A stretch of 64,000 nt of DNA from the IMG/VR virus record IMGVR_UViG_3300031786_000572, positions 1 to 64,000 of that record; one strand, 5' to 3'. The stretch is from a virus (Duplodnaviria > Caudoviricetes). A program made the position numbers and the translations under genes. The notes under the pieces are model-generated. The model ran no database searches, was not told where the DNA came from, and was given only the letters and a program-made list of their open reading frames with translations. Of this stretch, positions 3,330 through 61,100 are shown in pieces (positions within the stretch are counted from its first letter, which is position 1; each line of letters begins with the position of its first letter).

Positions 3330-3330
3330 C

Positions 3331-5990: not shown

Positions 5991-7362
5991 TAGAATTAAA
6001 CTTATACTTTTTGATCTTGATGGAGTTTTGGTTGAAGCAAAGCAAATTCATTATGATAGTTTAAACAAAGCTCTTAGTGAAATTAATCCATCATATGAAA
6101 TAAGCTGGCAAGAACATTTGAGTTTGTATGATGGATTAAAAACATCACAAAAGTTAGAAATGCTGCATGAACGCAAAGGACTTCCAATAGAATCGTTTAC
6201 TAAAGTTTGGGAAAGAAAGCAGGAAATAACTTTAACTGAATTAGAACTTTTACAACCCAATGAAGATTTAATTAATCTTTTTAAAGTTCTTTCTAACGAT
6301 TACAAAATTGCTTGTTGCTCAAATTCTATTCGTAATACAATTATTAAAGTTTTAACTAAGTTTGGAATCATTGAGTATTTTGACTTTATTATATCAAATG
6401 AAGATGTTAAGAATAGCAAACCTCATCCTGAGATTTATTGGAAAGCAATGTCTTGGTTTGGAATGCTTCCTGAAGAAACCCTTATTTTAGAAGATTCACC
6501 GTATGGACTTTATGCGGCTGCAAGATCCCAATCTCATATACTGCGTGTTAAGAATCCGTCAGAAGTTACTCTGCCTAACATTAATAAAAAAATATCTGAA
6601 ATAGATAACCACCCAATTATGAAACCTAAATGGACTGATAAAAAACTGAATGTGTTAATTCCTATGGCTGGTGCTGGTAGCCGGTTTGAACAAGCAGGGT
6701 ATACATTTCCTAAACCACTTATAGAAGTTAACAAGAAACCTATGATTCAGTTGGTTATAGAAAATCTAAACATAGATGCAAATTACATTTTTATCGTACA
6801 AAAAGTTCACAGAGAAAAATACAATCTTGATGCGCTACTTGGACTAATTACACCAAATTGTAAAATCGTAGAGGTAGACGGTATAACTGAAGGCGCTGCT
6901 TGTACGTCATTACTTGCTAAAGAATTTATAGATAACGATAATCCGTTGTTCTTTGCAAATTCTGACCAATTTGTTGAGTGGGATTCCACTGAATTTATGT
7001 ATAAGATGAATGAAACTGATTGTGATGGCGGAATTGTAACATTTAAAGCAACACACCCAAAATGGTCTTTTGCTAAGATTAATGAATCAACGGGTCTTGT
7101 TGAAGAAGTTGCGGAAAAAAGTACTATTAGTGATGATGCAACTGTTGGATTTTACTATTGGAAGCACGGTTCAGATTTTGTTAAGTACGCTGAAGAAATG
7201 ATTGAGCAAAACATAAGAGTTAATGGAGAATTTTACGTATGTCCTGTTTTTAACCAAGCAATTAAAGATGACAAACATATTAGAACATTAACTATAAAAG
7301 AAATGTGGGGTTTAGGTACTCCTGAAGATTTACGTTACTATTTAGAAAATTACAACAAATGA
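5971..7362 (+). CDS. HAD-family phosphatase fused to a sugar-phosphate nucleotidyltransferase
   Basis: LFDLDGVL, SKPHPEIY and ILEDSPYG HAD motifs; LIPMAGAGSRF..GYTFPKPLI and GLGTPEDL nucleotidyltransferase motifs. Confidence 0.88.
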   Translation: MDHNVSNRIKLILFDLDGVLVEAKQIHYDSLNKALSEINPSYEISWQEHLSLYDGLKTSQKLEMLHERKGLPIESFTKVWERKQEITLTELELLQPNEDLINLFKVLSNDYKIACCSNSIRNTIIKVLTKFGIIEYFDFIISNEDVKNSKPHPEIYWKAMSWFGMLPEETLILEDSPYGLYAAARSQSHILRVKNPSEVTLPNINKKISEIDNHPIMKPKWTDKKLNVLIPMAGAGSRFEQAGYTFPKPLIEVNKKPMIQLVIENLNIDANYIFIVQKVHREKYNLDALLGLITPNCKIVEVDGITEGAACTSLLAKEFIDNDNPLFFANSDQFVEWDSTEFMYKMNETDCDGGIVTFKATHPKWSFAKINESTGLVEEVAEKSTISDDATVGFYYWKHGSDFVKYAEEMIEQNIRVNGEFYVCPVFNQAIKDDKHIRTLTIKEMWGLGTPEDLRYYLENYNK

Positions 7363-36013: not shown

Positions 36014-36283
36014 ATGGCAGAACCAAGAGAAGGTAAGTATTTAACTCGAGAGAGCTATTACCAATATATGATACATATTCAAGATGATTTAAAAAATACT
36101 GGGTATGACTGGAGAAATAACTTGTTTAGAAAGTCTTTTTCTACTTATTTATTATCAGATCCTAAAAGAGAAGGAATCTTAATCGAACTTCAAAAAATGA
36201 TGGTTTATATGATTGACCGAGTAAGCATGATTAAAAAAGCTATGAATTACACGGTTGATAAAAACTACAAATATCTTAACTAA
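36014..36283 (+). CDS. Small baseplate-associated hypothetical protein
   Basis: 89-aa ORF coupled between the gp6-like gene and the giant gene. Confidence 0.65.
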   Translation: MAEPREGKYLTRESYYQYMIHIQDDLKNTGYDWRNNLFRKSFSTYLLSDPKREGILIELQKMMVYMIDRVSMIKKAMNYTVDKNYKYLN

Positions 36284-39200
36284 TGTTATTAAACAGACAA
36301 TTTAAAGTTTTTAACAAAAGCGGAAATAACATTAACTCTACGGAGATTTTACCTATTACCGCAACTGTTATAGATCCTACTGGTGCAGGCCAAGGTGGTG
36401 AAATCCGTGTGTACACTGATTACGCTGGAACTATGCAGTATGTACAGATTGTCAATCCAGGTATAAATTATAGTTCAGATACTTATGTAAATTTTGAAAC
36501 TCGCCCTATCATTAATAAACGATGGGACAGTGATTCAGCTTGTTTAGGATTAAGTGTGCTGGGAGAAATTACTTCTTTTAATTTTGCCGGAGATCCAACT
36601 TCAGTGTATAATACATTAGGCTGGCCGATTGTTGCTAATACAATTAGCAATTCATGTTATCTCCCACCTGTTTCTGCAGGATTAATTGAATCTGAAAATA
36701 TTTTCATAATTGAAAAAATCTTGGATTCAAATGGAAACACTTCATATGTTTTACCAAGAATTGATCTTTACACACAACCTGTGCAAAGTGTTGTGACTAA
36801 TGGATCTTCTGCTACATTAGAAGTTGAAAACTATCAATCTACAGGTATAGTAAACGCTGTAAACTCTTTTGTTATTACAGGAATTAGTCCTGCGGTAATT
36901 AGTCAGTTATCTACTAATATGACCGTGTTAGGTAATGGAATATTATCTAACACACTTATATTAGAAATTAATGTAATACTTGGAGAAATTACTTTAAGTA
37001 GACCTTCTACAAGTATAGGCATAACAAATACATATGATTTTTATATTCCACATAACTTAAAAGTAGGTTCTCCTATTAATGTGTATGGTGGTCCATTGGC
37101 TGGATCTTATACAGTTACACAAGTTCTTCCGTATAAATTTTCATTTGACACACTTATATCAACAACAGTTGTGCCAATTTCATATGCAGCTATTCCACAG
37201 TTTGAGGCAAGAATAAGAACAGGAACAGATCCTGAATGGTTTTTATATGAAGTAGAATACGGGGTAGATTATCCAACGATTAAGAAATCGCAAACTATTA
37301 TATTTACGTTAGATTCATCTGACCCATATTCATTACCCGATGCTATTATTCAACAGTCTAATAATCTAGGACCTAACGGTGAAATTATTCGCCAGGTGTT
37401 TGAACCTAATTTACTTAAAGCGCCTTTACAAATTAATTTTGGTTTACAAGCTGATGTTGAGGGTGTTTATGCAGGACAACTTGAAATTGTTGATGTAACG
37501 TATGTAAATAAAGAAACTATTCTATTTTCATTAAACATTGAAGGTGAAATAGTTGCTGAGGATGAACGTCTAGGTTCTATGCTTGAAAACTTAGGACGTG
37601 ATATTACAACAGACCAAGAACTTATACTTAGAGATTCTGATGTTAATGAAGATAATCCTGACTACATTTTACTTAACGAAAAACGAAAAGAGATGCTTCT
37701 CCAAGGAGACCAGATCTGGCCGTATGTTGGTGCATATAAAGGTTTAGTCAATATTATAAATTGGTTTGGTTATTATGATATAAGAATTAAAGAATACTGG
37801 CTAAACGTAAATGTTGATGATGCTTATTATAATAAGTACAGACAAGTTCCTATTGCGTTTCAACTTAAAGATAAAACTGCAAGTGGAGAACAAATTGGTT
37901 TACTACCAAGTAAACACTATAAGAAATCAAATCTATTTGGACTTTTTTATGATATCGTAAGAGACTCTGCTCAAGTTGATGAGTACGGTATTCCTGTAAC
38001 AGAAGATGCTTTTGCATATACTAATGAAGAAGTCTTAATCAAGTTATTTGCACTTAAAGGATATCTTAAACAAAAATTCCTTCCACTAAATACAAGAATT
38101 GTTGATATTACTGGTGAAGGTGTTTATTATGAAAGATATGCAGTTAATACTTGGAATGATAGAACTGATAGACATTTAATTAATGCAGGTAAACGATTAA
38201 ACTTTACAAATACACAAAGATCTCAAATTGTAGATCTTAGACCTTATAATGCAAACGGCGGACTGTTAACTCCTGAAGTTACAGATTCATTATCTATTTA
38301 TGCTGATTCATACGACATTAGTGATGTTATCATTACTTACGGTGGAAGTGGATTTTTTGGGGAAATTCCTTTAATAACTTTCCCAGGTTCTGCTTTACAA
38401 CAAGCAAGAGGTGAATGTAAAGTTCGTGCTGAGGCTGCACCCTTTCCTATTCCTATAACCGGTGCAATCCCAGGTATAAATTTTCAAGTTGGTGATATCA
38501 TAACTCTTAAAGGAGGTACTTATGATGTACCTATAAGACTTGAAGTTGCTGGTGTTAATTTAGGAGGTGGTGTTACTGACTATGTTATAAATGCTGGTCC
38601 TCAACAAGGAAGCAACTACCGTTCATTGCCTACAACGTTTGCACAGTCAACTGTTTTACGCCCGGTTGGAAATCAATATGAAATTCCATTAGGAGCTATT
38701 GGATTTACTATAGATGCATCACAAATTTCATTTGAAGTTGAAGAAGTTACTTTATATGATAAAGGATTGAGTTACGGCGTTTATCCTACTATTCAGTTTT
38801 TATGGAACTCTCCTTTAGGCGTTTCTCCAACAGGAACCTTAGTATTAACGAAAAAGACTTCTTCACCTGTAAGCTATTTTAGTGATAGTGAAAGTGTTAA
38901 GAAATACAGTGATTCTGCCAACATTCCAATTGGTGCAATCGTTGACTTAAATACCTCTTTTGATGTAACTTGGGACGAATTGCCGTTTCCTTGGTTAACT
39001 TTCACTGGAAGTAATAATGCAACATTAAAAGCATACGGAACTTTATTACCGAGTGGTGGTGGAAATATTACTGCGGTAGAAATTATTAATCCTGGAAGTG
39101 GTTATAATTATGCGCCAGTGATTAAAGTTGCTGGTGGTGGAGGCTATGGAGCAACGTTTTCATCACAAATAAGAGATGGCAAACTAAACATTGTAGAATA

Positions 39201-42200
39201 TACTGTATCTAATGTTGGTACATGGGGCGGTGGTAATGATCTACTTACGTTATCTCCAAGTATTCCTGTCGGTGGATTATCTGCTATCAGTATTGGTAGA
39301 ATTGTTAAAGGTTTAGGATTACCTGAAGGTACTGTAATTGGAAACATTATAGGTAATGACATCTATTTAGAAAAATATGATGCAAGCGTAATCTTTTCAA
39401 CAATACAAGTTGGTGCAAAAATATATGTTCATCAAGGCGTTGGAGTAACTTTTGGCGGATTTGGATATACGTCTGAACCTTTAGTTTACACAAGCGGTGG
39501 TCATACAACTGTTATGTATACTTGGGATGAATTAGGTAGAGCTGACTTTTATCAAATGGAATGGAAAGCTACATTAACAAGTCCTACTGACCCTACACGA
39601 GTTTTTCAATATAGATCTGGAGTAAATACCATTGACGAATTAATTCGTCATACTGTGATTTTACCTTACACTGGAAAATACACAATAGAACTTGATGTAT
39701 ATGACACAACAAATAGTAAGTCAAATAACATAAAACGTGATGCTGTTGAAGTATATGTTCCAGAAGCTGATTTTGCTTTCATCAGTAAAAACGTTGATGA
39801 TTCCAAAGATACTTGGGATGAATTTGCACAAATACAAGCACAAGGTCTTAATCCTTCATTAGCACAAATACAAGCTAACGTACCTATTGATGCGCCTAAT
39901 CCAATTAGATATGATTGGGACAATGCAAATAGCAGTTGGGTTAACATAACGTTTAATCCTACACGTTGGATGGATTGCGATGTTAACTGGGATACCCTAG
40001 TTGTGACTGATTTATCGGATGTTAATAATCCATCGTTCCCGCCATGTAATGAAATCGAGGTCCTTCAAATATCCTCTCGAGATCTTGCAGAAGGTGTTGT
40101 GTTAAGCTATTCTGATAATGCATCTGCATTTCCTTCAGTTAATCCTACGATTGTAGTTGCAGGTCAAATAATTAGACAACCGTTAGATCCTTCATATGAT
40201 CCAACTGATTGGATTTATATTCGCAGAGACGGAGTCATATATCAGTTAGAAGTTATATCCGCAGATTATTCTGTTCCAGGACAAACTTCTATTGAACTTG
40301 CTGTTAAACCTCCTCAAGCATTTATTGCAAGTCCTAGTACATGGGAAGTTCTTAGAGAAATAGAAGGAACAGTTGCGGTAAAAGGAAATCAAATTTATGA
40401 TGAAACTACTAATCCAAATGGATTTAAAACTGGTGAATATCTTGTACTAACAAAAGAGGGGTCAACTCCTATTTCTAGTAGAAATGTTATTCGTAGTAAA
40501 GATCCTGATGATATTTTTGAAATTGCCGGTGCTGCAGGTAGTACTATTCTTAATAAGAAAGGCGCTTATGGTAGAATTTATAAAGTAAGAGATAATAATT
40601 ACTTAAACGGAAATCTTAATTGGTCAAATAATGTAACTGCGGTAGATCCACTTGGATTTACATTTACAGGATTTGGTGCGCCAGGACCTGCATCTTTTAT
40701 TAATGTGCCTCAAACTTCTGCATCAGGTGGAGGTGTAAACTCTATGTGGAACATTGACATAGATGTATTAGGCAATTATACAATTACATTAGCAAATGGC
40801 GGCAGCGGGTTTTCTATTGCTGAAACCGTATTTATTGATGCAACAGCTATCGGTGGAGTTCCAGGGTTTAATGATATTACAATAACTGTAAATAACACAG
40901 TTTCTGAGTCTGCTTGGATGTACATAAATACAACTCCTAATGATCCAGAAAAAAGTGATCATATTGGTCAATTAGTTTTTAACACTAAGCAGTTAACTTG
41001 TAATCCTATAGATGAAATTCGTCCCGGGTTTACAAGAATGCGTTTATACGTATATGACGGTGTACAAGAAATTTATACACAAGTGTTTAGAACTAAACAT
41101 GCTTACTTAAATACAAGTAGTACTACATCTATATTCCAAATGTGGAATGCTGAATATTATACGATTGATGTGATAGGTTTAAATGGAGGTGAATTAAATG
41201 AACTGAATACTCAGCTTAATACATTCTATAATAATGGAAATTCTATTTATTTAGAATATGAATATGATGACTTTACAACTCGTCAACGCTGGGCGCAAGA
41301 TTTTAATACAGATTTAACTATTATACCTGACTATAATTCATTTCCTCCTGCTGGTGCATTTTCTAATGCAACTAACTTTGGTCCTGCTTATGAAGTTGAT
41401 AATCGTAATTGGTTTTATGATCATGGGATAGTTGGAAATAGTTATTCTATGAAAATACTTAACACAGGTACTTGGAAAGGTGGAGTAGGCACTTTATTAA
41501 CTCTTGATGATAATAATCTTGAGCTGTATAGAAGTGATACATATTTCCATGCTTGCCAACAAAGGTTTGATGAAGATTACGCCGAAAGACATTTAGGTAC
41601 TCGAGTTCAAACATGGGAAAACTATGAAGAGCTTACTTGGGATACTTTTAGTGGAAATACGTTTGACACGCTTGATTATGTAGATAATTTATGGTGCGGA
41701 TATGTTATTGATACAGTTGACACAAATGGAGGTATAAAGTTTAATGAATTACCTACATTTAATTTTGTAGGTATAGTTGGAGGAATGAGTGATTCAGAAA
41801 AATTTGCACAAGCACTTTGGGAACTTAATAATTCTGATAATCCTGGAATTAGTAAATTTAACTATGGGTTATATAGTGCAACAAATAATTCTTTATTGTA
41901 CATTGATGCAAACTATGTTAATGATAACTATTTTACTGCGCTAACCGGCGGATTTCAATATATAGGAAAAACTAAGATAAACACATATCTTGTGCCTGAT
42001 GGTGTTTTTTATGAAAACAGTGTAACAATTACAAATGGAGATGTTTTATATTCTCCTCTTGTTGAACCTGCATCAAAAGTTACTTCAATAGCACCAGCAT
42101 TTTCAATAGATCCGCTATTAACAAACTATAATGTTACTTATCTAAATAAGAATATTCCTAAGAAAGGTTCTTTTGTTGCAAATGGTGTTTCTGGGAGCTA

Positions 42201-43143
42201 CCGTTTAAAAAATATACAAGGATTACATGAAGGTGTAATCAGAGTAGGTGAAGTAGTGTCTGGTGTTAACTTACCTGTTGCTCCAGCAATACCTGCTACA
42301 GTTTTAGAAATCTTTGCAATTAACGGAATGGTTCGTGAAATTGTTCTTAGTCAACCATTAAGTGGAAATGTAACAAATGGAAGTTATGTAATTGAGCAAA
42401 TAACACTTCCTAATGCAACAATTACAATACCGTTTTTATCTAACGGATTAACACAAAATGATATTCAGATATTTGCGTTTGCAACAAATCCAAGTGTAGA
42501 TAACTTAGGTTATTTAGTAGGAACTAATGGAGTTACATTCTTACCTCCACAAAATCCTAGCGCCACTATTAACACATCAATAGCACATACATATCCAATG
42601 AATAATTTTTATCAATGGTTTGGGTTTGGTGATAATAAAGTAGGATCATTTGAATATGGATTACAACAGTTCTTAACCAAGTATCGTTATGCTCAAACTT
42701 ATATAAATTTAGGTACAGCTCCTTGGGGTGTTCCAGGTTGGTACCCTGCGGATAATTTACCTTACAAGTATTCTTATACTAATGATCCAATATTTAGCAA
42801 TTATCTAGAAGCAAAATCACAATCTGAAAGATTGCCGTATGCAAGAGCTATTGGTGGATCGTATACGTGGGATGAAACAAGAATTGGTAAATATGTAACC
42901 AAAATTCCGTCTGGTAGTTCTGTAATGTTATCAGCAGAAGCAAGTGATATGGTTGGTAAGACAGGATATCTTTGGAAATTAAAAGACGGAAATATTACCC
43001 TTGCTGAAACTATTGATAGCCGTATGTTATGGACATTTGATTACACAGGCGCTTTTGATGTTGAACTAACTATCACAGATACAAATGGTAATCAAAAAAC
43101 ACAATCTAAAAAGTCATTCTTAAACGTATATGAAGCAAGATAA
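36283..43143 (+). CDS. Giant (2286 aa) baseplate wedge/structural protein, gp7-like position, with PKD/Ig-like domains
   Basis: YVGAYKGLVNIINWFG segment; repeated IINPGSGY-type beta modules; C-terminal FDYTGAFDVELTITD PKD-like end. Confidence 0.6.
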   Translation: MLLNRQFKVFNKSGNNINSTEILPITATVIDPTGAGQGGEIRVYTDYAGTMQYVQIVNPGINYSSDTYVNFETRPIINKRWDSDSACLGLSVLGEITSFNFAGDPTSVYNTLGWPIVANTISNSCYLPPVSAGLIESENIFIIEKILDSNGNTSYVLPRIDLYTQPVQSVVTNGSSATLEVENYQSTGIVNAVNSFVITGISPAVISQLSTNMTVLGNGILSNTLILEINVILGEITLSRPSTSIGITNTYDFYIPHNLKVGSPINVYGGPLAGSYTVTQVLPYKFSFDTLISTTVVPISYAAIPQFEARIRTGTDPEWFLYEVEYGVDYPTIKKSQTIIFTLDSSDPYSLPDAIIQQSNNLGPNGEIIRQVFEPNLLKAPLQINFGLQADVEGVYAGQLEIVDVTYVNKETILFSLNIEGEIVAEDERLGSMLENLGRDITTDQELILRDSDVNEDNPDYILLNEKRKEMLLQGDQIWPYVGAYKGLVNIINWFGYYDIRIKEYWLNVNVDDAYYNKYRQVPIAFQLKDKTASGEQIGLLPSKHYKKSNLFGLFYDIVRDSAQVDEYGIPVTEDAFAYTNEEVLIKLFALKGYLKQKFLPLNTRIVDITGEGVYYERYAVNTWNDRTDRHLINAGKRLNFTNTQRSQIVDLRPYNANGGLLTPEVTDSLSIYADSYDISDVIITYGGSGFFGEIPLITFPGSALQQARGECKVRAEAAPFPIPITGAIPGINFQVGDIITLKGGTYDVPIRLEVAGVNLGGGVTDYVINAGPQQGSNYRSLPTTFAQSTVLRPVGNQYEIPLGAIGFTIDASQISFEVEEVTLYDKGLSYGVYPTIQFLWNSPLGVSPTGTLVLTKKTSSPVSYFSDSESVKKYSDSANIPIGAIVDLNTSFDVTWDELPFPWLTFTGSNNATLKAYGTLLPSGGGNITAVEIINPGSGYNYAPVIKVAGGGGYGATFSSQIRDGKLNIVEYTVSNVGTWGGGNDLLTLSPSIPVGGLSAISIGRIVKGLGLPEGTVIGNIIGNDIYLEKYDASVIFSTIQVGAKIYVHQGVGVTFGGFGYTSEPLVYTSGGHTTVMYTWDELGRADFYQMEWKATLTSPTDPTRVFQYRSGVNTIDELIRHTVILPYTGKYTIELDVYDTTNSKSNNIKRDAVEVYVPEADFAFISKNVDDSKDTWDEFAQIQAQGLNPSLAQIQANVPIDAPNPIRYDWDNANSSWVNITFNPTRWMDCDVNWDTLVVTDLSDVNNPSFPPCNEIEVLQISSRDLAEGVVLSYSDNASAFPSVNPTIVVAGQIIRQPLDPSYDPTDWIYIRRDGVIYQLEVISADYSVPGQTSIELAVKPPQAFIASPSTWEVLREIEGTVAVKGNQIYDETTNPNGFKTGEYLVLTKEGSTPISSRNVIRSKDPDDIFEIAGAAGSTILNKKGAYGRIYKVRDNNYLNGNLNWSNNVTAVDPLGFTFTGFGAPGPASFINVPQTSASGGGVNSMWNIDIDVLGNYTITLANGGSGFSIAETVFIDATAIGGVPGFNDITITVNNTVSESAWMYINTTPNDPEKSDHIGQLVFNTKQLTCNPIDEIRPGFTRMRLYVYDGVQEIYTQVFRTKHAYLNTSSTTSIFQMWNAEYYTIDVIGLNGGELNELNTQLNTFYNNGNSIYLEYEYDDFTTRQRWAQDFNTDLTIIPDYNSFPPAGAFSNATNFGPAYEVDNRNWFYDHGIVGNSYSMKILNTGTWKGGVGTLLTLDDNNLELYRSDTYFHACQQRFDEDYAERHLGTRVQTWENYEELTWDTFSGNTFDTLDYVDNLWCGYVIDTVDTNGGIKFNELPTFNFVGIVGGMSDSEKFAQALWELNNSDNPGISKFNYGLYSATNNSLLYIDANYVNDNYFTALTGGFQYIGKTKINTYLVPDGVFYENSVTITNGDVLYSPLVEPASKVTSIAPAFSIDPLLTNYNVTYLNKNIPKKGSFVANGVSGSYRLKNIQGLHEGVIRVGEVVSGVNLPVAPAIPATVLEIFAINGMVREIVLSQPLSGNVTNGSYVIEQITLPNATITIPFLSNGLTQNDIQIFAFATNPSVDNLGYLVGTNGVTFLPPQNPSATINTSIAHTYPMNNFYQWFGFGDNKVGSFEYGLQQFLTKYRYAQTYINLGTAPWGVPGWYPADNLPYKYSYTNDPIFSNYLEAKSQSERLPYARAIGGSYTWDETRIGKYVTKIPSGSSVMLSAEASDMVGKTGYLWKLKDGNITLAETIDSRMLWTFDYTGAFDVELTITDTNGNQKTQSKKSFLNVYEAR

Positions 43144-45319: not shown

Positions 45320-46048
45320 ATGGCTGTAAGAAGAAAAACTAAACCGGTGGTAGAAGACCTTGTACAAGAACTAAAACCACAAGAAAGATTACTTATGAAA
45401 ATAAGAGTTGATCTTAAATGTAAAAATGATCGCCAGAAAAATTTCATTAGACTAATAAATAAGCATGACATTGTAGTCTGTGCAGGTCCAGCTGGAACTG
45501 GAAAAACATTCGTTGCTTGCGCTGAAGCTCTAAAATTGCTAACTACACAAAATCACAAGTATAAGAAAATCATAATCGTAAAATCTGTAACTGTTTTAGA
45601 AGGCGAAGAAATTGGTTTCCTAAAAGGGACAATGAAAGAAAAGATGGAGCCGTTTATGATATCTTTCTTAGATAACTTTCATAAACTTATAGGTAAAGAA
45701 CTAACAGGAACAATGTTAAATTGTGAAATGATTGAAGTACTTCCACTTGCTTATGTTAGAGGAAGAAGCATTGATAACGCAATCATTATTGTTGATGAGG
45801 CACAAAACATTACATTGAAAAACATGCGTTCAACAATGACTCGTTTAGGTGAAGATTCCAAAATCATTATTACTGGTGATACCAAACAGATTGATATGAA
45901 AGCTGGAAATACCTCATCATTAGAAAAAGTAGTTCAATACTTTACACCGATGGAAGAAGTTGGTATAATGGAATTTGGTAGAGAAGATATAGTTCGTAAT
46001 CCGTTAATCATCAAGATTGAAGAAATCTTTGAGAAACATATGGGTTAA
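45320..46048 (+). CDS. phoH: PhoH-family ATPase
   Basis: AGPAGTGKT Walker A; LAYVRGRSI, IIVDEAQN, TRLG and ITGDTKQID motifs. Confidence 0.93.
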   Translation: MAVRRKTKPVVEDLVQELKPQERLLMKIRVDLKCKNDRQKNFIRLINKHDIVVCAGPAGTGKTFVACAEALKLLTTQNHKYKKIIIVKSVTVLEGEEIGFLKGTMKEKMEPFMISFLDNFHKLIGKELTGTMLNCEMIEVLPLAYVRGRSIDNAIIIVDEAQNITLKNMRSTMTRLGEDSKIIITGDTKQIDMKAGNTSSLEKVVQYFTPMEEVGIMEFGREDIVRNPLIIKIEEIFEKHMG

Positions 46049-46488
46049 AAATCAATTATGTTAATTCTATCCTTTTTATTTGCAACCCAATAAGGACCGT
46101 AATTAACAGTAAGTTGTTCTCCCACGTTTATATCACGTAAAGTCTTAACACCTATTAAGCGGTTTTCAAAATCGCGAAAGAACTCAGAATTATTATTACC
46201 GCTGTGATTATAGATACTTAAATATCCTAACATCACAGCGGTTTTTGGTTCATCAGATTCATCAGGCCAACTCATACCGTATTGGTCAAGAACAATATCA
46301 TCAATACTTATACCATCTCCTTGCGCCATATACATAGCTATGGTTATAAGTTTTTGTGGATATGTAAAGATTGGAGATAACTCAATAATAGTATCAGCTG
46401 GAATAGTTTCATAAGTAAAAACTCCCCAGCCGTTTATTTGTGGTATGTCTTTAAGTTCAAGACAGTTAAGAATAAAAGGTTTATTCAC
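46045..46488 (-). CDS. SET-domain protein-lysine methyltransferase
   Basis: GWGVFT, LGYLSIYNHS and TLRDINVGEQLTVNYG motifs. Confidence 0.85.
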   Translation of the reverse strand: MNKPFILNCLELKDIPQINGWGVFTYETIPADTIIELSPIFTYPQKLITIAMYMAQGDGISIDDIVLDQYGMSWPDESDEPKTAVMLGYLSIYNHSGNNNSEFFRDFENRLIGVKTLRDINVGEQLTVNYGPYWVANKKDRINIIDF

Positions 46489-46753
46489 TTGTAGAAATCA
46501 AATCTTCTGGAATACCTTTTATTTTTCTAGCGTAGAAGTCAGGTATTTTACCGCATGATCTGCAGATGATAATGTCAGCAGGTATAATCTCTTCTTTTGC
46601 AGTTGGGCTAAGTAAAGGTGATACTTTCTTAACCATTACTGCTGAGTCAAAAAGTCTACCTCCACATGAACATTCTACCCAGGGTAATGAATCTACGTCG
46701 ATTCGTGGCGCAATATGAGCTTCTTGTCCACCTTGTATGTTTTCAAAATTCAT
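46481..46753 (-). CDS. Zinc-ribbon hypothetical protein
   Basis: CSCGG and CRSCG pairs; overlaps the start of the SET gene. Confidence 0.72.
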   Translation of the reverse strand: MNFENIQGGQEAHIAPRIDVDSLPWVECSCGGRLFDSAVMVKKVSPLLSPTAKEEIIPADIIICRSCGKIPDFYARKIKGIPEDLISTSE

Positions 46754-46900: not shown

Positions 46901-47605
46901 ATGTTTACTCAACAACAACTTAACAAACTACTTTTCTTTGACATCGAGACTGCAGGACAATATCCATCATATGAAGAGTTTAAAGCTCAAGATCCTGAAG
47001 GAGCCAAAATATATGCAGGAAAATGTGAAAGAATGGGATACGGTGATCCTGCTGATGGGTATGAAAATAAAGTTTCTTTATTCCCTGAATTTGGTCGTAT
47101 TGTTTGTTTATCATACGGTCTTTGGAAAAATGGAGATATCCAAGTACAAACTATTTCAGATTTAAACGAGGCTGATCTTATAAAGAAAACAGCTCACCTA
47201 TTTAATAAAGCAACAGCAAGCGGTTTAATCCCTTGCGGCTGGAATATTAAGAATTTTGACATTCCTTGGGTTTATCGTAAAATACTTATGTACGGATTCC
47301 TAGTTCCTGAATGTGTAAATACTTGGGGCAAAAAACCTTGGGAAGTAAACATTGTTGATTTAAAAGAATGGTGGAAAGGATTCTCTAATCTTGATGTTAC
47401 TTTTGAAGAAGCAATGTACGGATTAGGATTACCTTCTCCTAAAGATGAAATGAATGGCGGCCAAGTTCATTTTGAATATTGGGCAAATCATAACACAAAC
47501 GGTATCATTAAATACTGTGAGAAAGATGTTATCGGAATGATTCGCATGATTGAAAAAATACATAACACTTATTATAAACCAGCCGTAGGCACAACACTTA
47601 TTTAA
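46901..47605 (+). CDS. 3'-5' exonuclease, PolB-proofreading-like (DNA_pol_B_exo2)
   Basis: FFDIET (ExoI), WNIKNFDIPW (ExoII) and YCEKDV (ExoIII). Confidence 0.88.
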   Translation: MFTQQQLNKLLFFDIETAGQYPSYEEFKAQDPEGAKIYAGKCERMGYGDPADGYENKVSLFPEFGRIVCLSYGLWKNGDIQVQTISDLNEADLIKKTAHLFNKATASGLIPCGWNIKNFDIPWVYRKILMYGFLVPECVNTWGKKPWEVNIVDLKEWWKGFSNLDVTFEEAMYGLGLPSPKDEMNGGQVHFEYWANHNTNGIIKYCEKDVIGMIRMIEKIHNTYYKPAVGTTLI

Positions 47606-47606
47606 T

Positions 47607-48449
47607 ATGCCAGAATTAGCGGAAGTTAAAATCATGGGTGATTTCATTAATCACGTTGTTGATAATGAAGGATTCTTTGAAAAGATTGAGAAATCAGAGT
47701 CTACTAAAGTAAAAACAGATCTTGATATCTTTGACGGCGGAGTATTTACATTACGAGCAAAAACTCGTGGCAAAGAAATGATACTTCATCTTGAAATGGT
47801 GGGTGGCGATATTAATGGAGCCGTCACTAAAGATATGGGAGTTACTTTAGGTATGAGTGGCAACTGGGCATACATAAGAAAAGAAAGTGAGCATTTAGAA
47901 AAAGTGCTTAAGCATTCTCATTTAAGATTTATCACAACAAGAGGAAACTATTTAGTATTACATGATGTTAGACGTTTTGCTAAATGGAAATGGGTAAATG
48001 ATTGGAACGCTGGTCGTGGTCCTTGTCCGCTGACAGAATATCCTAAGTTTATTGAAAATGTAAAACTATATTTTAGTAAACACAAAGCATTTAACTTACC
48101 TATTAATGAATTGCTGATGAACCAACGATTCTTTAATGGAATAGGAAATTACCTAAGAGCTGAAATACTCTATAGACTAAACATTAATCCTTTTACTATC
48201 GCAAATGAGATTAGTCTTAAAGATTGGGACCATCTGCTTCTTCTTTGTCATTTATGCGTTAGAGACGCATATACTTTGGGCGGCGGGCAATTAAGTGATT
48301 GGAAAAATCCTAATGGAGTTGATGCTAAAGACTTTAAAGAATGGAAGAAATGCTATGGAGTTTTATCGTCTTTAACCGATGGTACAGGCAGAAGATTTTG
48401 GTATGATCCAAAATGGGAAGAATATGTACCTAGTAAGTACACTCAATAA
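47607..48449 (+). CDS. Fpg/Nei-family DNA glycosylase/AP lyase, NEIL1-like
   Basis: N-terminal PE, RGKE, GMSG, DVRRF, H2TH LLMNQRFFNGIGNYLRAEILYRL; no zinc-finger cysteine pairs. Confidence 0.92.
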   Translation: MPELAEVKIMGDFINHVVDNEGFFEKIEKSESTKVKTDLDIFDGGVFTLRAKTRGKEMILHLEMVGGDINGAVTKDMGVTLGMSGNWAYIRKESEHLEKVLKHSHLRFITTRGNYLVLHDVRRFAKWKWVNDWNAGRGPCPLTEYPKFIENVKLYFSKHKAFNLPINELLMNQRFFNGIGNYLRAEILYRLNINPFTIANEISLKDWDHLLLLCHLCVRDAYTLGGGQLSDWKNPNGVDAKDFKEWKKCYGVLSSLTDGTGRRFWYDPKWEEYVPSKYTQ

Positions 48450-54500: not shown

Positions 54501-55102
54501 GTGATAAAAATACGCCAGCAAAACAATTAGAATATAAGAAAAACTGGCCTTCTTCTACTGGACCAACTGGGCCTTACACAGGTTTAACTGCAACAACACC
54601 AACATTAGGTATTTTACCTGATAAGTATGGTTTTGTGAATGATGATAGATATTTAATAGGCGCTGATACTTGTGGTGCTTACTTGTTCTTAGGACCTGTA
54701 ACATACAATCAATTATTAGTTAACGGTGTAAATGCTTTAGCAAGTCGTTCATTAGAAAATGGTTCAAATAATGCAATAGTTATTCCAGTGATCTTTCAGT
54801 ATAGAATGACTGATTATTACGGACCTTCTATTACATCTTCTTCATCAGCAGGTGGTAATGGAATCATTGGCGGATATAATGTAACAAACACAGTTCCTCC
54901 TAAGAATATAACTTATGTTAGACAAATAGGATTAGACTTATATCAACAAGATAAACAAACATTCTCTTTCGATATTCAAGTTGCAGCTACATATCAGAAA
55001 GATTCATTAATCCAACTTTATGAAACAGGATTACCAACAGCAACCAAACAAGTTAAAGAGGTAACCTATGATAAAGCAACCATTAAACGTATATTCTCGT
55101 AA
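51539..55102 (+). CDS. Large putative virion structural protein with coiled coils
   Basis: 1187-aa ORF; heptad regions near QKSIDKKKEELN and ITSLNLRIQDLENRLN. Confidence 0.55.
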   Translation: MAETSNSFATILADFIRLQNNSLEQLQKVSQAVTTNADTVTVTQTNSDGTTSTFTLPSFGFLKSSIERIDKTVSTMLGFDGSEAYIRMPDGTFKKIYQSKNVTDPSPVGQVTVPAKFIAENNYFFESLLSPALKVSIDVSKYVPQEESKIYVKRMILSLDTDDKIQYFNNSLKGKNDINYVNLLVELQKRNITYFVDEGVNDLPLSIVRYTGDFITVNIEDRTYSNPDGSTSTKRWYLLNTLKYNDNLSLTKDTMVLKPGDKLLKGESIYEVSEIDNSTNFIRINRTSGYDPLVVGEPVIFYSETFSPKVANVGIGYDEYEVVFFKSVNDTENLLSSTYSPGVAFYTNELTIDLTTGPKLLSDFYNESVLDFGSMLLAGSKENKIAAVNGLVPNAPVLNEVNFKVVSVNDHKLDQAEIQAIRKKQADKVRLESEITELQKSIDKKKEELNTTKFNSDTERRAVKNQLDSLIREKDTKTALYASIVKELAVTAQQKPAALDTPKYRIRGFYAIPEPVKDSNGQEQNVIQFYTYYRYVRPDGSASDIKQFDYTDTSGAIKRATYSNLNEVKSEIRKKVYDPVRGIYVWLEEDITNPDVVNINQVDIPISNGEKVEFYVVSVSEAGWPENPILSVPSNIISITFPQDLVSEDEATIALREASQDIVRVDLENDLAAKGLDVHLASSFNAIEKYYAHDTSVISSNVYTAQGTVISLEDYITSLNLRIQDLENRLNKVVGDVKVYIVDEEKNAKLPVKNGDVVTLFAGYYTDAVNLLPATSRRGAIINKSYKIYLENEEASPLQLISRLPGGIAEELPDSFSSSVPPGINDPDYNLYRKYDITPIVNPSVNPADTNNANKIATAFYQSGQLKGQFLYSRYTDVGLVNPLYQAPGTGTNRYIVPSTDYSSNVTQPWIWNRLSVGPGTGPIGGGTANNFTIHIDHPAINPPAAGTTATLANLQTPVIAIDPISGNPQSPERVSTFRHAYGFNQLGDKNTPAKQLEYKKNWPSSTGPTGPYTGLTATTPTLGILPDKYGFVNDDRYLIGADTCGAYLFLGPVTYNQLLVNGVNALASRSLENGSNNAIVIPVIFQYRMTDYYGPSITSSSSAGGNGIIGGYNVTNTVPPKNITYVRQIGLDLYQQDKQTFSFDIQVAATYQKDSLIQLYETGLPTATKQVKEVTYDKATIKRIFS

Positions 55103-58100
55103 TGACAGGACCAAATTTTTATACGATTGATTTTTCTAGAGAAGTAGTTCTACAAGGAAAGTCAACAACATTCATAACGATAGGCAGAAATGAAGGTATT
55201 AACTTACTGCCAACTGAGGATTTGTATGTAATCGTTATGCCTAATACGAGAACGTTTAATTCTTATTTAAGTGGTACACAAACACCAGGCGGTACTGGGT
55301 TAACTGCTATTCAAGAAGTTGAAGTTACTACAACAACTACTAATGTAAGCCCAGGAGTTTTAAGTTTTAACAACATAGAACCCGGTATGACTGTTAAGAA
55401 TGCTTGGGATTTTCAAAACTCTGGAGCAACAGGACCAATTTCGGTAACAGTAGGTTCTACAGTAGATAGTCAGATAAATGAAAAAATCATTAGTTTGACA
55501 GGATCTCCTGGTTTTGTAACAAATGATGGACCTACCAATATTCATATAGGTGAATGGGATGATAGCGGTAAAAACCGATGGAAAATAAATGGTAAAGTTT
55601 TAAGTGATTACGAATACATTGCATATACATCTCCACCATCTAATCAAGATGTAATTAACTTGCCAAATATATTTGATGGTTCAAAAGAAACTTTTGTTGG
55701 ACCTTCTAGTACTTTAGTTGGTACTGGTTACGTTGGTCGTCAAAACGGTGGTTGGGTAGTAGTTAAAAGTAATCCCAAATTACCGAATGCTTCTGTTACA
55801 TTGAGAATTGATTACGATGGGACAGATCATTCACATATGAAGTTTAATCTTATAATCTTTAAAAAATTAATAAATAGCGGTTTACTTACATATCAAGCGC
55901 CGCTAAATTTACCAACAAGTGTATCACCTAATTCTGAAGATTATGTTACAGTTCCATTTGGTGTTAAGTCAGGATCTTCTACATTAGGATTAACAAATTA
56001 TCTTGACTATCAAGAAGTTCATTTCTTTGGTTATAAAGATACTGATACCAGAACTTCAAGAACAACCTATCAGAATGATTATCAATCAGAAACTAAAATC
56101 TATGATGATCGTACTTCATATTCATTATTAAAGACAAATCCTAAAATTTCGGGTAACGTTAAAATTACTTTAGATTCTACAGGAAACTTGTGGTTAAACT
56201 CTATTGATGCAAATAACGAATTAGCAGATTCTGCATATAAGAAATACCCTGTTAGCCCATTATCTACATACCCAAGAGACCTTTACAAGTTCTTTAAGAA
56301 TGGACAGACGCCAACCTCAATTATTTTTGATCTTTATCAAGTTGACAATCTTTATCAAAATACCAAAAGAAATTTATACGAACAGTTTGATAACTTTTAT
56401 AACTACGGAGTTGAGCAATTAAAAAGTAAATATTATGATGAAAACTTTTCATTCTTTGCACCACTTTGGTTAAGAAAGAATGTTCCAGATTTCTTTATAG
56501 TATTTCGTTTAGATCACCCGGTTTCTGAAGAGACATATAAAAATGCAAGTAATCCTGAAGTATTTAAAAGTTTCTTTAAAGACGCAAGAATAGTTAAAAC
56601 ATTTGACATGCGTGAGAAATCACAGCTTGGTACTTACTTGCGTAAAATTACCACGGATCCTCGTTTTAAAGAACGTCCACTTGACGTTAGTTTTGATAGT
56701 GACATTCCTACTGTTTGGAATGGTATTTCTTATGCAGATGGCACAATGACAGGTAAAGGTGAGTTCTTATTTGATTACTGGAAGCAAGATCGTCCTGTAA
56801 TTGAATTAGAAGAATACATCACAGGTGGTTACCAAAGAAACGGAATTATTAGTTCAAATCTTGTTAACTTAGAGTTCTTATTTGATGATGAAGAAGCTAC
56901 TCCATATTCTATTAATCGTTACTTTGGTTTATATGTAACTGAAAACCAATTAGCAAACTTTCAAATTGATTCTACTGCATTAGGAAAAATCTCAGGTCAA
57001 ACACCTCTTCCTAAAGTTGGAGTTGACGGTGAACCGTATAGTACAAAAGAATTCATTCAGAATAATCCAAATGGGATAGAAATTCCTGTAAGATATTTTC
57101 ATAATCCTAGCGGTGTTGTAAATAACACTAATATACCTTCATACCAAGGTGATGTGATTGGAAAGTTTCCACTGCCAAGTTTTGTGGAAGATCCTCTAAG
57201 AATCTTTTATGTTAAAGACAGAGAAGATGCGTTTAAACGTATCACAGCATTATCTGAAGTAGATTATGGAAACCCTGGCACCGACGATTACCGCAGAGTA
57301 ACTCAAATTAAACTATTTGATAATACTGAAGACATGAGCAAATATGCAGGTGTTAATCAAATATCATCACAGTTTAATGCAAGTCTTTTAAATGAAGGCG
57401 CTTCACAGTTAAGATTACATTTAGCGCAACATGATTCCGCAAATGTTTTTGCCGATGATGAAGTTATAGAACTTACAGTTAACCAATATAATGCAGATCC
57501 TCGTAATCGTCAGTATTGGATAAGAACAAAAAATACTACTGCCACTGATATAACATTTGAAGTATTTTTAGATCAACAAGCATACCCATTAACTAACCAA
57601 GCATACACAATGCCAGCGGTAGGAGCTACTACTGTAATTTCAGTTAATGACAACTTTCATACTTTTGTGGTTGGCGAACAAGTTTGGGTTTCTGGTCTTG
57701 GTTATTTTCAAATTAAGTCTATAGCAGCTACAACTAATTTAACTGTTATGAATACTGGAGAAGCTGGCAATGCAGCGCCAGGGACAATCATACCAATGTT
57801 TTATAATGCTGTTATAAGTAGAATTTCTCCTACATACATATCAACATATAATTATACCCCGTTTTCAGACATTTTAACAATAGATACTGTCTTATCATTA
57901 AAATTACAGAGTACTAATTTATTCGTGCATCAATTAGGGTTTTGGAGAGTTGAAATTAAAGATACGCAAGTATCTTCAACATATATTGCAGGCTCAGGAC
58001 AACCGGACCTTGAACCTTTAGCTTCTCCAATATCTCAGCAGTTTAAGTGGAGAATGACAGCAAGTCCTGTTGCTTTAGCTGCGGGGCAGTCTTGGAATTA

Positions 58101-61100
58101 CCCAGTAGCTGATCCTAATGGTTATGATTATACAACCAACTTTAGTAACGAGGGAACTCCTTCACAGGTTGCTACTGCATTAGCGTCCGCAATAAATTCA
58201 TTTGAAAATAGACCGTGTGATGCACTTGCTATTGATGATGTAATTTATCTTAAAGCAGTACGCGCAGGATTGGAAGGTAATAACATACAATTAACTCGTA
58301 AAATGATTGACGGGCAAAGTAATGTGTTTAACATGGGATTTTATGAAAGATCTAATGTAAACCTTACTTATGATGTTAGTGTTGTAAATTTACCGGGTTC
58401 AGCAACAGCTCCTGTATATTTAAAGAATAGATCTTCAATCGCAGGTCATTCTTATACATTCGTTGAAGTATACAAAACCATTACTGGAGTTTATTTTCAA
58501 CTTAGAGAAGGTGTTACACCTACATCTTTACTTGATGCATCTTTATCGGGTTCAGTATCTTATGAAGTTGCTGCAGCTAACACAAAAGAATATTCAAATC
58601 CTAACTTAAATTTTGCAATTGATATATCTGGACTTAGCCTTAATGTTTATCACCAGTTTGTTGTTGAAAGTAATGTAGGTCCACTAGAAATTAAGCAATT
58701 ATTTGTAGGAGGTTCAGAACGCAATCGTAATAGAGCAAGTATAGGCTTTGTAGACTCTCAGAGGTACTTTAGTGACCGCAGATTAAATCTTACGGCAAAT
58801 ATTATTACTGGCTCAAATGTTCTTTCTAATGTACTTGTAGATAACATATATGTTGGCGCTCCTGTAATTGGAGATGGAATACCTGCAGGCACTTATGTGA
58901 ATGAAATTGATTACTTAAATAATCAACTTATTGTAAGCAATGCGGCTACTTTGGGTACCCCAGCAATTCCTGCTACATTAACAACACCGTTTATTCCAGC
59001 TAAACCGTATCTTTCAAATATCACGGTTGGTGAATTGTCAATCTTAAATAATGAAACAATTAAAGATCAATGGTACCAAGCACAAAAAGGATTCTATTCT
59101 CAAATGAAACCTTGGGAAATCCAAGGAAAATATGTTTATTCATTACCTTACCTTGAAGAAAAGGTCGAGGATAGATTTAACAATGTTTCAGATTATACAA
59201 ATCTTGGTGAATATAGTATCATACAATTAGCCAATAATACAAATGAATTTTATCAAACAACAGATAAACGAATTGTTGCGTATGATATTTATAGACCTAT
59301 TGTAGGTATCTTTTCAATATTTCCTATTAAGGAATTTGATGTTGATTTTTACTTTTCAGATTATTCATACACACCTATTTTAGAAGCTTTACGTTACTAT
59401 TTTAATGAAACGGTAAATAAAGATGGTTCAATAGTTTTACCAAGCGATGAAAATTATAAGATAACTCCGATTGATGTTTCAGGCAATGAAATACATAGTG
59501 ATCTTGATATAAAAATAGAAGCTCTTAATCCTGACACAAATACTTGGGATGAAATTGAAACCATATCTTTAAATGAAGAATTGCCTGTTAGAATTAGCAA
59601 TAATAAATCATACATAATTAATACTTATTATCCGTTTTACGTATATGATGAACTTGAACAGCCACAAGTTCCTAGTGATCCGTCTAACTATTATATAGGT
59701 GGGTCAGGATTGCGTAATTTTATGAGACGTAATATTTCATCAGTTGATGACAGTGGTAATGTAACTGAAAAAGTTCCACATTCATACAGATTATCTTTTA
59801 GCAGTTCTAACACAAATTTTGCAGGTGTTAACATAGTTAAAAATGATTACTATAATGATAATGATTTAAAAACTTTTCAAGGGTTTTCAGCATTAAGTGA
59901 CATATATTCTCCTGAAGATGCTGATGCAGTTCGTGGTTTACTTAATGATGAAAAATATGTAGAAGCATTCTTGTATCAAGCATTGCGTTCAGAATACGAT
60001 CGTCTTAGAGAAAATTTTAATAAAGATTATGCTTTAAGATCTCGAGTAGTTCCTTACATCAGCAAATGGGTGCAAGAAGGAACAGATGCTCGTGATAACT
60101 ATTATCGTTTAGATAATTCTAGGGCATTTGGTATTACTAACTTTTCGCCTGACACGAATGTAAAATTTGCGGAGCCGTCATTATTAACTAATGAGTTTCC
60201 GTATCTTGATACTGTGCCTAAAGATTATCCAATAGAATCTTTAGAAGGATCACGCTCTTATATGTTTGCAAAACTAGGTGACGCAGCAAAAGGTACACAA
60301 ACTTGGCTAGACTTGTTAACTACAAATGATGATGATGATTGGTTCACTAAATACTTTGCTGTTGGTTATCCTACAGAGATAAACCCAGTCAATAGTCTTG
60401 TGCCTAAATCTCGTGATGAAAGATTTACCTTTATGATTTATAATGAAGGTATTAAAAGATCACAAACCTTATTTAGAGGTGGAAAAATTCAAGTTCTTGA
60501 TATAAATGATCAGCTTATTCCACCAACAGAAATTTCTGACTCAACTAAATATAACGACTATAAGTTTGCAGCTATTGCAAGAATTGTACCATACGATCCT
60601 TATTTTGTAGAAAAGATAGACCCAACCAAATCATTAATAGGAAATAATCTTAACAATGGTAAAACGCAAAAACCAGTTGATATAGAGGTTTATCGTAATG
60701 ATAAGTTTAAGTCAATCACTATGATTATTACTGTGCGTGTACAAGATTATCGTGTACAATCAGGATTAAGCGATTACTTATTCTTATATGCTGTAAATGA
60801 TCAACTTAAAAACTATAATCAAACACAAGTTCCTATTGGGAACAGAAGTGCAGGAATTGGCTATAGTAATGCTTTAAGTATAACTGACTTTATACCGTAT
60901 GCTTTAGTAGCAAGTCCCGCTTCATATACAGAATTTGCTACTATGATGCCTAGACAAGGTTTCTTTGGTGGTGGATATCTTGAACTAGGAGATACTCGTT
61001 TAGGTGGTCTTGTTCATGAAAATAATGGTTCAATTGGAACTAATCCACAGTTTATCCCAACATCAGGAAATTTAATTCTTAAGTACAAATCGGTTGATCC

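What the first reader, a model, noticed from the sequence alone, without database searches (positions are those of the whole stretch)
47607..48449. Phage glycosylase that looks like human NEIL1 rather than bacterial Fpg/Nei
Compared from memory with human NEIL1, long blocks match: GRGPCPLTEYPKFIENV vs GRGPCVLQEYQQFRENV; KAFNLPINELLMNQRFFNGIGNYLRAEILYRLNINPF vs KAFDRPICEALLDQRFFNGIGNYLRAEILYRLKIPPF; LLLLCH vs LLELCH; FKEWKKCYGVLSSLTDGTGRRFW vs FRAWLRCYGMPGMSSLQDRHGRTIW. Candidate equivalents of the void-filling Met81/Arg118/Phe120 (GMSG, DVRRF) are present, and it has a zincless finger instead of the Cys4 finger of bacterial Fpg/Nei. A NEIL1-grade enzyme in a bacteriophage bears on the origin of the animal NEIL1 lineage (inference).
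Basis: partly seen in the sequence, partly recalled or inferred. Interest (0 to 1): 0.78.

Follow-up and report, generated by a model that had tools for sequence, protein, structure and literature searches.

The report
NEIL1-type DNA repair glycosylase in phage
A large uncultured freshwater phage carries an intact DNA-repair glycosylase that is far closer to animal NEIL1 than to bacterial Fpg/Nei. It belongs to a big, mostly phage-borne family that is the nearest known non-eukaryotic kin of NEIL1, but which side donated the gene cannot be resolved.

Summary
ORF 47607-48449 (+, 280 aa) is an intact Fpg/Nei-superfamily glycosylase. Its best solved relatives are all human NEIL1 (E 8e-40, 36% identity over the whole catalytic core, fold TM 0.77-0.85). 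Bacterial Fpg, E. coli Nei and mimivirus Nei1 score only E 1e-8 to 4e-3. Catalytic Pro2/Glu3/Lys56, the Met/Arg/Phe intercalating triad, the H2TH Asn and the zincless-finger Arg are invariant in the family, and dN/dS is about 0.1.

The host record is a large tailed phage. The gene is translationally coupled to a DEDDy 3'-5' exonuclease in about 20 related phages. The family is large: 110 clusters (at 50% identity) score below E 1e-30, and at least 363 IMG/VR contigs carry it. It is mostly phage-borne, with sporadic chromosomal copies in Poribacteria.

In a careful ML tree the NEIL1-type superclade splits from Fpg/Nei with 100/99 support. Eukaryotic NEIL1 (animals, choanoflagellates, Amoebozoa) is one clade (100/87) among about 20 phage/bacterial lineages. 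An AU test does not reject simple sisterhood (p=0.42), so the direction of transfer is open.

No paper I could search describes this clade, but this scan had already met it on other phage DNA.

The parts
47607..48449 (+). NEIL1-type Fpg/Nei DNA glycosylase/AP lyase gene (280 aa)
   Evidence: ORF. Human NEIL1 is the best solved relative, E 8e-40. AF2 pLDDT is 91.5 and the top 50 Foldseek hits are all NEIL1. dN/dS is 0.10 against L002.
47607..47987 (+). N-terminal beta-sandwich catalytic domain (residues 1-127) with Pro2, Glu3, Lys56, Met83, Arg122 and Phe124
   Evidence: Pfam PF01149, E 2e-12, residues 1-127. These residues are invariant in the 20-sequence family alignment and align with NEIL1 P2, E3, K54, M81, R118 and F120.
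48060..48269 (+). Helix-two-turn-helix DNA-binding domain (residues 152-221), including the FNGIGNYLRAEILYR block with Asn177
   Evidence: Pfam PF06831, E 1.8e-9. The block is nearly identical to NEIL1. N177 is invariant.
48330..48407 (+). Zincless finger (residues 242-267): a beta-hairpin carrying Arg262, with no Cys4
   Evidence: Pfam PF09292 (Neil1-DNA_bind) scores 21.5 bits, below the 25-bit cut-off for this protein, but is recorded on many family members. AF2 strands lie at 254-257 and 263-266. R262 is invariant and aligns with NEIL1 R277.
46901..47605 (+). DEDDy 3'-5' exonuclease (PolB-exo-like, 234 aa), translationally coupled to the glycosylase (TAA-T-ATG)
   Evidence: PHROG 25228, E 8e-32. 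Pfam PF10108. D14, E16, D120, Y205 and D209 are invariant. The gap to the glycosylase is at most 7 nt, or the genes overlap, in 17 of 21 loci, and the order is reversed in the distant locus L082.

Best explanation
The gene encodes a functional, compact NEIL1-type bifunctional DNA glycosylase/AP lyase. After removal of Met1, the N-terminal proline attacks C1' of a flipped-out oxidised base and forms a Schiff base, assisted by Glu3 and Lys56. Met83, Arg122 and Phe124 fill the gap left in the helix. The H2TH motif and the zincless-finger Arg262 hold the phosphate backbone. Beta,delta-elimination then cuts the strand. Likely substrates are oxidised pyrimidines, hydantoins and Fapy lesions. The phage most likely uses the enzyme to start base-excision repair of its own large replicating genome in oxic, sunlit fresh water. 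It is co-expressed with a DEDDy 3'-5' exonuclease that may process the ends the lyase creates. Shown here: family, fold, conserved catalytic residues, purifying selection, phage context and gene coupling. Inferred: substrate range, the lyase chemistry, the role of the exonuclease and the benefit to the phage. In evolutionary terms it belongs to a large, mainly phage-borne clade that is the closest known non-eukaryotic kin of eukaryotic NEIL1.
For: Human NEIL1 is the top solved relative by sequence (E 8e-40) and by fold (TM 0.77-0.85, top 50 hits). The model is confident (pLDDT 91.5). P2, E3, K56, M83, R122, R123, F124, N177 and R262 are invariant across 20 members at 49-75% identity. dN/dS is 0.10-0.17. 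Phage context: baseplate and adaptor genes, gp32-like SSB, primase and helicase. At least 363 IMG/VR contigs carry a relative, including T4-like phages with Gp23, Gp20 and topoisomerase II. The nearest Atlas clusters are 84-93% viral, mostly Uroviricota. The exonuclease coupling is conserved and is rearranged but retained in a distant lineage. The tree separates the NEIL1-type superclade from Fpg/Nei at 100/99. Primate NEIL1 scores only 26 bits against mimivirus Nei1, compared with 140-158 bits against this protein.
Against: There is no biochemical evidence. NEIL1 lesion-loop residues K242 and Y244 align with G227 and L229 in the phage family, so substrate preference may differ. PF09292 is below its cut-off for this protein. 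DEDD exonucleases normally need a 3'-OH, so their ability to clear a 3'-phosphate is doubtful (my own knowledge). No PNKP, Xth or Nfo homologue lies in the 87.6 kb available, but the record is only about 28% complete. Transcription is not shown.
Confidence: 0.78

Rival explanations
1. The enzyme is not mainly a repair enzyme. It acts on host DNA, on modified or non-canonical bases, or as a counter-defence or takeover nuclease that uses its glycosylase/lyase activity to nick particular DNA.
For: In the T4-like carriers the gene sits among nucleotide-metabolism genes: dCMP deaminase, thymidylate-synthase-like and topoisomerase II. The lesion-recognition loop differs from NEIL1. The window carries glycosyltransferase and sugar-nucleotide genes.
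Against: The whole NEIL1 catalytic and DNA-binding apparatus is conserved. Chromosomal copies in Poribacteria are the only Fpg/Nei homologue in those MAGs, which suggests a housekeeping repair role. No base-modification gene is linked to it in this record.
Confidence: 0.12
2. It is an ordinary bacterial Fpg or Nei picked up from the host, and the NEIL1 resemblance is superficial.
For: NCBIfam Fpg and Nei models give weak hits (E 1.6e-23 to 7e-11), as expected within one superfamily.
Against: All those hits fall far below the curated cut-offs (83 bits against 203). The gap to NEIL1 is about 30 orders of magnitude in E-value. There is no Cys4 finger. The ML tree separates the clades at 100/99.
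Confidence: 0.02
3. The sequence is eukaryotic or giant-virus DNA, or a recent capture from an animal, rather than a long-standing phage gene.
For: The full-length holders are runs labelled 'fungus metagenome'.
Against: The contig has tailed-phage structural and T4-type replication genes on one strand. The gene keeps the same synteny in about 20 related phage contigs of up to 238 kb. Family divergence goes down to about 35% identity within phages. It does not branch inside the eukaryotic clade.
Confidence: 0.02
4. It is a decaying or non-catalytic relic.
For: None.
Against: The frame is intact, all catalytic residues are invariant and dN/dS is about 0.1.
Confidence: 0.01

Closest known systems
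Human/animal NEIL1 (endonuclease VIII-like 1; PDB 1TDH, 5ITX, 6LWx)
   Same: They share 36% identity over the whole catalytic core. They also share the same fold, the N-terminal Pro-Glu, the catalytic Lys, the Met/Arg/Phe intercalating triad, a near-identical H2TH block and the zincless finger with its Arg.
   Different: The phage protein lacks the roughly 100-residue disordered C-terminal tail. It lacks the roughly 21-residue insert at NEIL1 198-218. NEIL1 lesion-loop residues K242 and Y244 are replaced by G227 and L229, with an invariant W232 nearby. It branches outside the eukaryotic clade.
Mimivirus Nei1 (MvNei1, L315; PDB 3A42/3A45/3VK7), the published 'viral NEIL1 ortholog'
   Same: It is a virus-encoded, zincless-finger Fpg/Nei enzyme.
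   Different: It is much more distant. MvNei1 scores E 1e-8 against the phage protein and only 26 bits (E 4e-5) against primate NEIL1. I had no sequence reference for it, so I could not place it in the tree.
Bacterial Fpg/MutM and Nei (E. coli, Bacillus), and the Fpg genes of cultured phages (Bacillus phage G gp292, SP-10, YungSlug)
   Same: They belong to the same superfamily, with the same two-domain architecture and N-terminal Pro-Glu chemistry.
   Different: Those carry a Cys4 zinc finger and form the outgroup clade at 100/99. They are only 21-29% identical to the query. No cultured-phage record in the phage collection searched (INPHARED) holds a NEIL1-type gene.
Chromosomal NEIL1-type genes of pelagic Poribacteria and Neomarinimicrobiota MAGs
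   Same: They are the same short NEIL1-type architecture, 36-40% identical, and lie inside the same radiation.
   Different: They sit in a cellular context: sulfatases, RlmL, and phoH-ybeY-corC. They are the sole Fpg/Nei homologue in those MAGs. They are sporadic within the phylum, found in 3 of 81 genomes sampled.

Membership tests
Fpg/Nei (H2TH) glycosylase superfamily | N-terminal catalytic domain with Pro2-Glu3 directly after Met1 | tested here: met
   PF01149, E 2e-12, above the cut-off. The MPE start is invariant.
Fpg/Nei (H2TH) glycosylase superfamily | H2TH DNA-binding domain | tested here: met
   PF06831, 37.9 bits against a 34.7-bit cut-off.
NEIL1 subfamily | Zincless finger (beta-hairpin with a conserved Arg, no Cys4) in place of a zinc finger | tested here: met
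   There is no Cys4. The AF2 hairpin lies at 254-266, and R262 aligns with NEIL1 R277. PF09292 scores 21.5 bits, under the 25-bit cut-off, but is recorded on many relatives.
NEIL1 subfamily | Void-filling Met81/Arg118/Phe120 and catalytic Lys54 | tested here: met
   M83, R122, F124 and K56 are invariant and aligned.
NEIL1 subfamily | Closer in sequence and fold to NEIL1 than to any other Fpg/Nei clade | tested here: met
   140 bits against at most 39 bits. The top 50 Foldseek hits are all NEIL1. The superclade has 100/99 support.
NEIL1 subfamily | Placement inside the eukaryotic NEIL1 clade (orthology in the strict sense) | tested here: not met
   The query lies in a separate phage clade (100/98). 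The eukaryotic clade (100/87) excludes it.
NEIL1 subfamily | Disordered C-terminal interaction tail and lesion-loop residues K/R242 and Y244 | tested here: not met
   The protein ends at residue 280. K242 and Y244 align with G227 and L229.
NEIL1 subfamily | Excision of Tg, 5-OHU, Sp/Gh and Fapy lesions with beta,delta-elimination, including on bubble and single-stranded DNA | not testable with these tools
   This needs enzyme assays.
Bacterial Fpg (MutM) / Nei equivalogs | Score above the NCBIfam equivalog cut-off, and a Cys4 zinc finger | tested here: not met
   TIGR00577 scores 83 bits against a 203-bit cut-off. PRK10445 scores 42 bits against 252. There is no Cys4.

The most novel reading that the evidence does not exclude
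Eukaryotic NEIL1 (Holozoa plus Amoebozoa) descends from this phage/bacterial NEIL1-type radiation. An early eukaryote would have acquired a compact phage- or bacterium-borne zincless-finger glycosylase and later added the regulatory C-terminal tail. In phages the enzyme works with its coupled DEDDy exonuclease as a minimal, self-contained two-gene base-excision module.
Probability: 0.35. Interest if true: 0.75.

Novelty: new member of a known kind. Interest (0 to 1): 0.58.

Why it matters
NEIL1 is a heavily studied human repair enzyme. In the literature it is treated as an animal-lineage gene whose only viral relative is mimivirus Nei1. This window shows a large, diverse and mostly phage-borne family that is several-fold closer to NEIL1 than mimivirus Nei1 is. 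That gives the origin of NEIL1 a concrete and testable outgroup. It also provides compact natural variants without the tail, which could be used to dissect which NEIL1 features are ancestral: the zincless finger and intercalating triad on one side, the lesion loop and tail on the other. Finally, it indicates that large aquatic phages invest in oxidative base-excision repair.

Tried and rejected
(1) Complex prediction on the glycosylase and exonuclease returned no verdict (score 0.00). This is neither support for nor evidence against binding.

The genomic context of the unnamed short sequences nearest the eukaryotic clade (P0200, P0159, P0156, P0191, P0137) therefore could not be read. Viral-contig scans with P0287 and P0137 found nothing. 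The scan with P0186 led to T4-like phages.

(3) treekit's own constrained search had not converged after about 1800 s. I ran the AU test directly on its best constrained tree.

(4) Laid RNA libraries gave one identical 170-nt contig inside the exonuclease gene (X19) and only 90-95% relatives elsewhere. Nothing covered most of the glycosylase, so transcription is not shown.

(5) Searches of the record for PNKP-type phosphatase, Xth-type and Nfo-type AP endonucleases found none. The record is about 28% complete, so this says little.

(6) Promoter and terminator scans around the gene pair were at chance level.

(7) I had no reference for mimivirus Nei1, NEIL2, NEIL3 or plant/fungal Fpg sequences, so they are absent from the tree.

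(8) The control-genome loci I hoped to get from the genome search were not returned. Outgroups came from annotated E. coli and phage records instead.

Full report
OBSERVATION

Pfam finds the Fpg/Nei N-terminal catalytic domain (E 2e-12) and the H2TH domain (E 1.8e-9), both above their cut-offs. It also finds a sub-threshold match to the NEIL1 zincless-finger family PF09292, at 21.5 bits against a 25-bit cut-off. NCBIfam Fpg and Nei equivalog models hit only far below their cut-offs, for example 83 bits against 203. PHROGs places the protein in a family of unknown function.

Against all PDB sequences, the 15 best matches are all human NEIL1, at E 8e-40 to 2e-38 and about 140 bits. The next best are T. 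thermophilus MutM (6e-9), mimivirus Nei1 (about 1e-8), E. coli Fpg (1.5e-8) and E. coli Nei (4e-3). BLASTP against a primate NEIL1 obtained by id (P0270) gives 36% identity over 295 columns, E 2e-50. E. coli Fpg gives 27% over 164 columns.

An AlphaFold2 model built on a 20-member family alignment is confident (pLDDT 91.5, pTM 0.87). Its 50 best Foldseek matches in the PDB are all human NEIL1, with TM 0.77-0.85.

ANATOMY

In an alignment of 20 family members (49-75% identical to the query), several residues are invariant. They are listed here with the NEIL1 residues they align to:
- Pro2 and Glu3
- Lys56 (NEIL1 K54)
- Met83 (M81)
- Arg122 and Phe124 (R118 and F120)
- Asn177 in the H2TH motif
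- Arg262 (R277, in the zincless finger)

The C-terminus has one cysteine and no Cys4 motif. The model puts Arg262 on a beta-hairpin at 254-257/263-266.

The protein differs from NEIL1 in three ways. It has no C-terminal tail. The roughly 21-residue NEIL1 insert at 198-218 is absent. The lesion-loop residues K242 and Y244 align with G227 and L229, with an invariant W232 nearby.

dN/dS against the closest relatives is 0.10-0.17. The gene is under clear purifying selection.

WHAT CARRIES IT

The window is the first 64 kb of an 87.6 kb IMG/VR record that CheckV rates about 28% complete. Its genes include:
- baseplate hub and wedge and a head-tail adaptor
- a gp32-like SSB, primase, helicase, an exonuclease and a Hoc-like protein
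- PhoH and a SET-domain protein

Nearly all genes lie on one strand. It is therefore a large tailed phage. Syntenic relatives reach 238 kb.

The gene directly upstream (46901-47605) is a PolB-exo-like DEDDy 3'-5' exonuclease, and its catalytic D14, E16, D120, Y205 and D209 are invariant. Its stop codon and the glycosylase start are one base apart, TAA-T-ATG. The pair is adjacent in 21 loci. In 17 of them the gap is at most 7 nt or the genes overlap. In the distant locus L082 (43% identity) the order is reversed but the genes are still contiguous. This points to a functional link rather than inherited synteny alone.

The stretch is present without differences in DNA runs other than the possible source samples. 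Holders are labelled fungus, lake or freshwater metagenomes.

THE FAMILY

The word-indexed search found 1972 hits. The best 120 are all 48-95% identical proteins of about 280 aa, either unnamed or called 'endonuclease VIII-like 1' by JGI.

The exhaustive search of 1.84 billion representatives found 110 clusters (at 50% identity) below E 1e-30 and 390 below 1e-10. Short proteins of 250-300 aa dominate. Longer ones appear from about 1e-37, and on look-up these are animal NEIL1s: tuatara, capuchin, tinamou, Aplysia, crab and tardigrade. Other eukaryotes also appear: choanoflagellates (Salpingoeca, Mylnosiga), Amoebozoa (Endostelium, Planoprotostelium) and a euglenid transcriptome.

IMG/VR holds at least 363 contigs with a relative. 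Clustering of flanking genes shows two main syntenies. One is the query's group. The other is a larger T4-like group with topoisomerase II subunits, helicase, dCMP deaminase and thymidylate synthase. A further lineage also sits in a T4-like phage with Gp23 and Gp20. The nearest ESM Atlas clusters are 84-93% viral, mostly Uroviricota.

No cultured phage in the INPHARED collection has a NEIL1-type gene. Only Fpg-type genes at 21-29% identity were found there.

Among 185,579 prokaryotic species genomes, only 11 loci matched, all in MAGs. Two of them, binned as Saprospirales and Flavobacteriaceae, look like mis-binned phage contigs. The Poribacteria loci are genuinely chromosomal: they sit among sulfatases, RlmL, YkuD and the phoH-ybeY-corC operon. 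In all five MAGs searched, among them two Poribacteria, the gene is the only Fpg/Nei homologue. It is sporadic in that phylum, in 3 of 81 genomes sampled.

PHYLOGENY

I built a careful ML tree of 105 rows under LG+C20+F+G4 PMSF, with 1000 ultrafast bootstraps and SH-aLRT. Six canonical Fpg/Nei sequences served as outgroup: E. coli Fpg and Nei, and four phage Fpg. The results are:
- The NEIL1-type superclade separates from the outgroup at 100/99.
- All eukaryotic sequences form one clade at 100/87.
- The query falls in its own phage clade at 100/98.
- Poribacteria plus Neomarinimicrobiota form a clade at 100/99.

The eukaryotic clade is one of about 20 lineages in a poorly resolved radiation, with backbone support of 80-91. 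It is nominally nested among phage and bacterial lineages.

Forcing all non-eukaryotic rows into one clade costs only 6.3 lnL units and is not rejected (p-AU 0.42). The kinship is therefore solid, but the direction of transfer is not established.

As a calibration, primate NEIL1 scores only 26 bits against mimivirus Nei1. The phage clade is much closer to NEIL1 than the one published viral 'ortholog'.

MECHANISM (inferred from family knowledge)

The expected chemistry is as follows. Met1 is removed, Pro2 acts as nucleophile and forms a Schiff base, and beta,delta-elimination leaves 3'- and 5'-phosphates. Likely substrates are oxidised pyrimidines, hydantoins and Fapy lesions.

The most likely role is to start base-excision repair of the phage's own DNA. 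The coupled exonuclease may process the nicked or blocked 3' end. This is speculative, because DEDD exonucleases usually need a 3'-OH. No PNKP, Xth or Nfo gene is present in the partial record. The altered lesion loop leaves room for a different substrate preference or a non-repair role, which I put at about 12%.

NOVELTY

The published nine-clade Fpg/Nei scheme lists NEIL1 as metazoan, with mimivirus Nei1 as the viral relative (PMC3188539). A survey of NEIL1 homologues covers animals only (PMC7797072). Six full-text searches found no description of a phage or bacterial NEIL1-type clade. Databases hold these proteins only under automatic labels.

This scan had already noted the same family on other phage DNA (e1-5322261, e1-5367281), with conclusions that my independent tests reproduce.

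I file it as a new, undescribed member clade of a known kind of enzyme. It is of moderate-to-good interest because it bears on the origin of NEIL1.

Noticed in passing
window 46045-46488 (-): A 147-aa SET-domain protein (PF00856, E 6.6e-13), a lysine-methyltransferase fold, is encoded on the minus strand of an otherwise plus-strand phage genome. It is conserved in about 20 related phage loci.
   Followed up: partly
window 46481-46753 (-): A 90-aa protein with CxC...CxxC spacing, possibly a zinc ribbon, lies next to the SET gene. It is conserved in 16 related loci and has no family hit.
   Followed up: no
window 36283-43143, 55102-62700 and 62804 onward into L113:1-5379: Three giant ORFs of 2286 aa, 2532 aa and about 2190 aa. 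The first two were too long to scan. Neighbouring large ORFs (716 and 1187 aa) have no Pfam hit. They are probably structural or fibre proteins.
   Followed up: no
window 568-7362: A sugar-metabolism cluster: a beta-1,4-glycosyltransferase, a nucleotide-sugar epimerase, a second glycosyltransferase and a HAD hydrolase fused to a domain of unknown function. It may glycosylate the virion, host glycans or DNA.
   Followed up: no
L083-L085, L087 and L089-L092 (Poribacteria MAG contigs): A chromosomal NEIL1-type glycosylase occurs in two distinct cellular syntenies, one beside phoH-ybeY-corC. It was the only PF01149 hit in both of the Poribacteria MAGs searched, and the phylum sample shows it in 3 of 81 genomes.
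   Followed up: partly
P0244, P0258, P0249, P0252, P0236: NEIL1-clade proteins occur in Amoebozoa (Planoprotostelium, on a 103 kb genomic contig, and Endostelium), in choanoflagellates and in a euglenid transcriptome. Eukaryotic NEIL1 is therefore not restricted to animals.
   Followed up: partly
L102:9045-10665: In a T4-like carrier, a GIY-YIG/NUMOD3 homing-endonuclease gene lies directly beside thymidylate synthase, just downstream of the glycosylase.
   Followed up: no
window 47315-47484: A freshwater metatranscriptome library (X19) holds a 170-nt contig identical to part of the exonuclease gene. This is too little to show transcription.
   Followed up: partly
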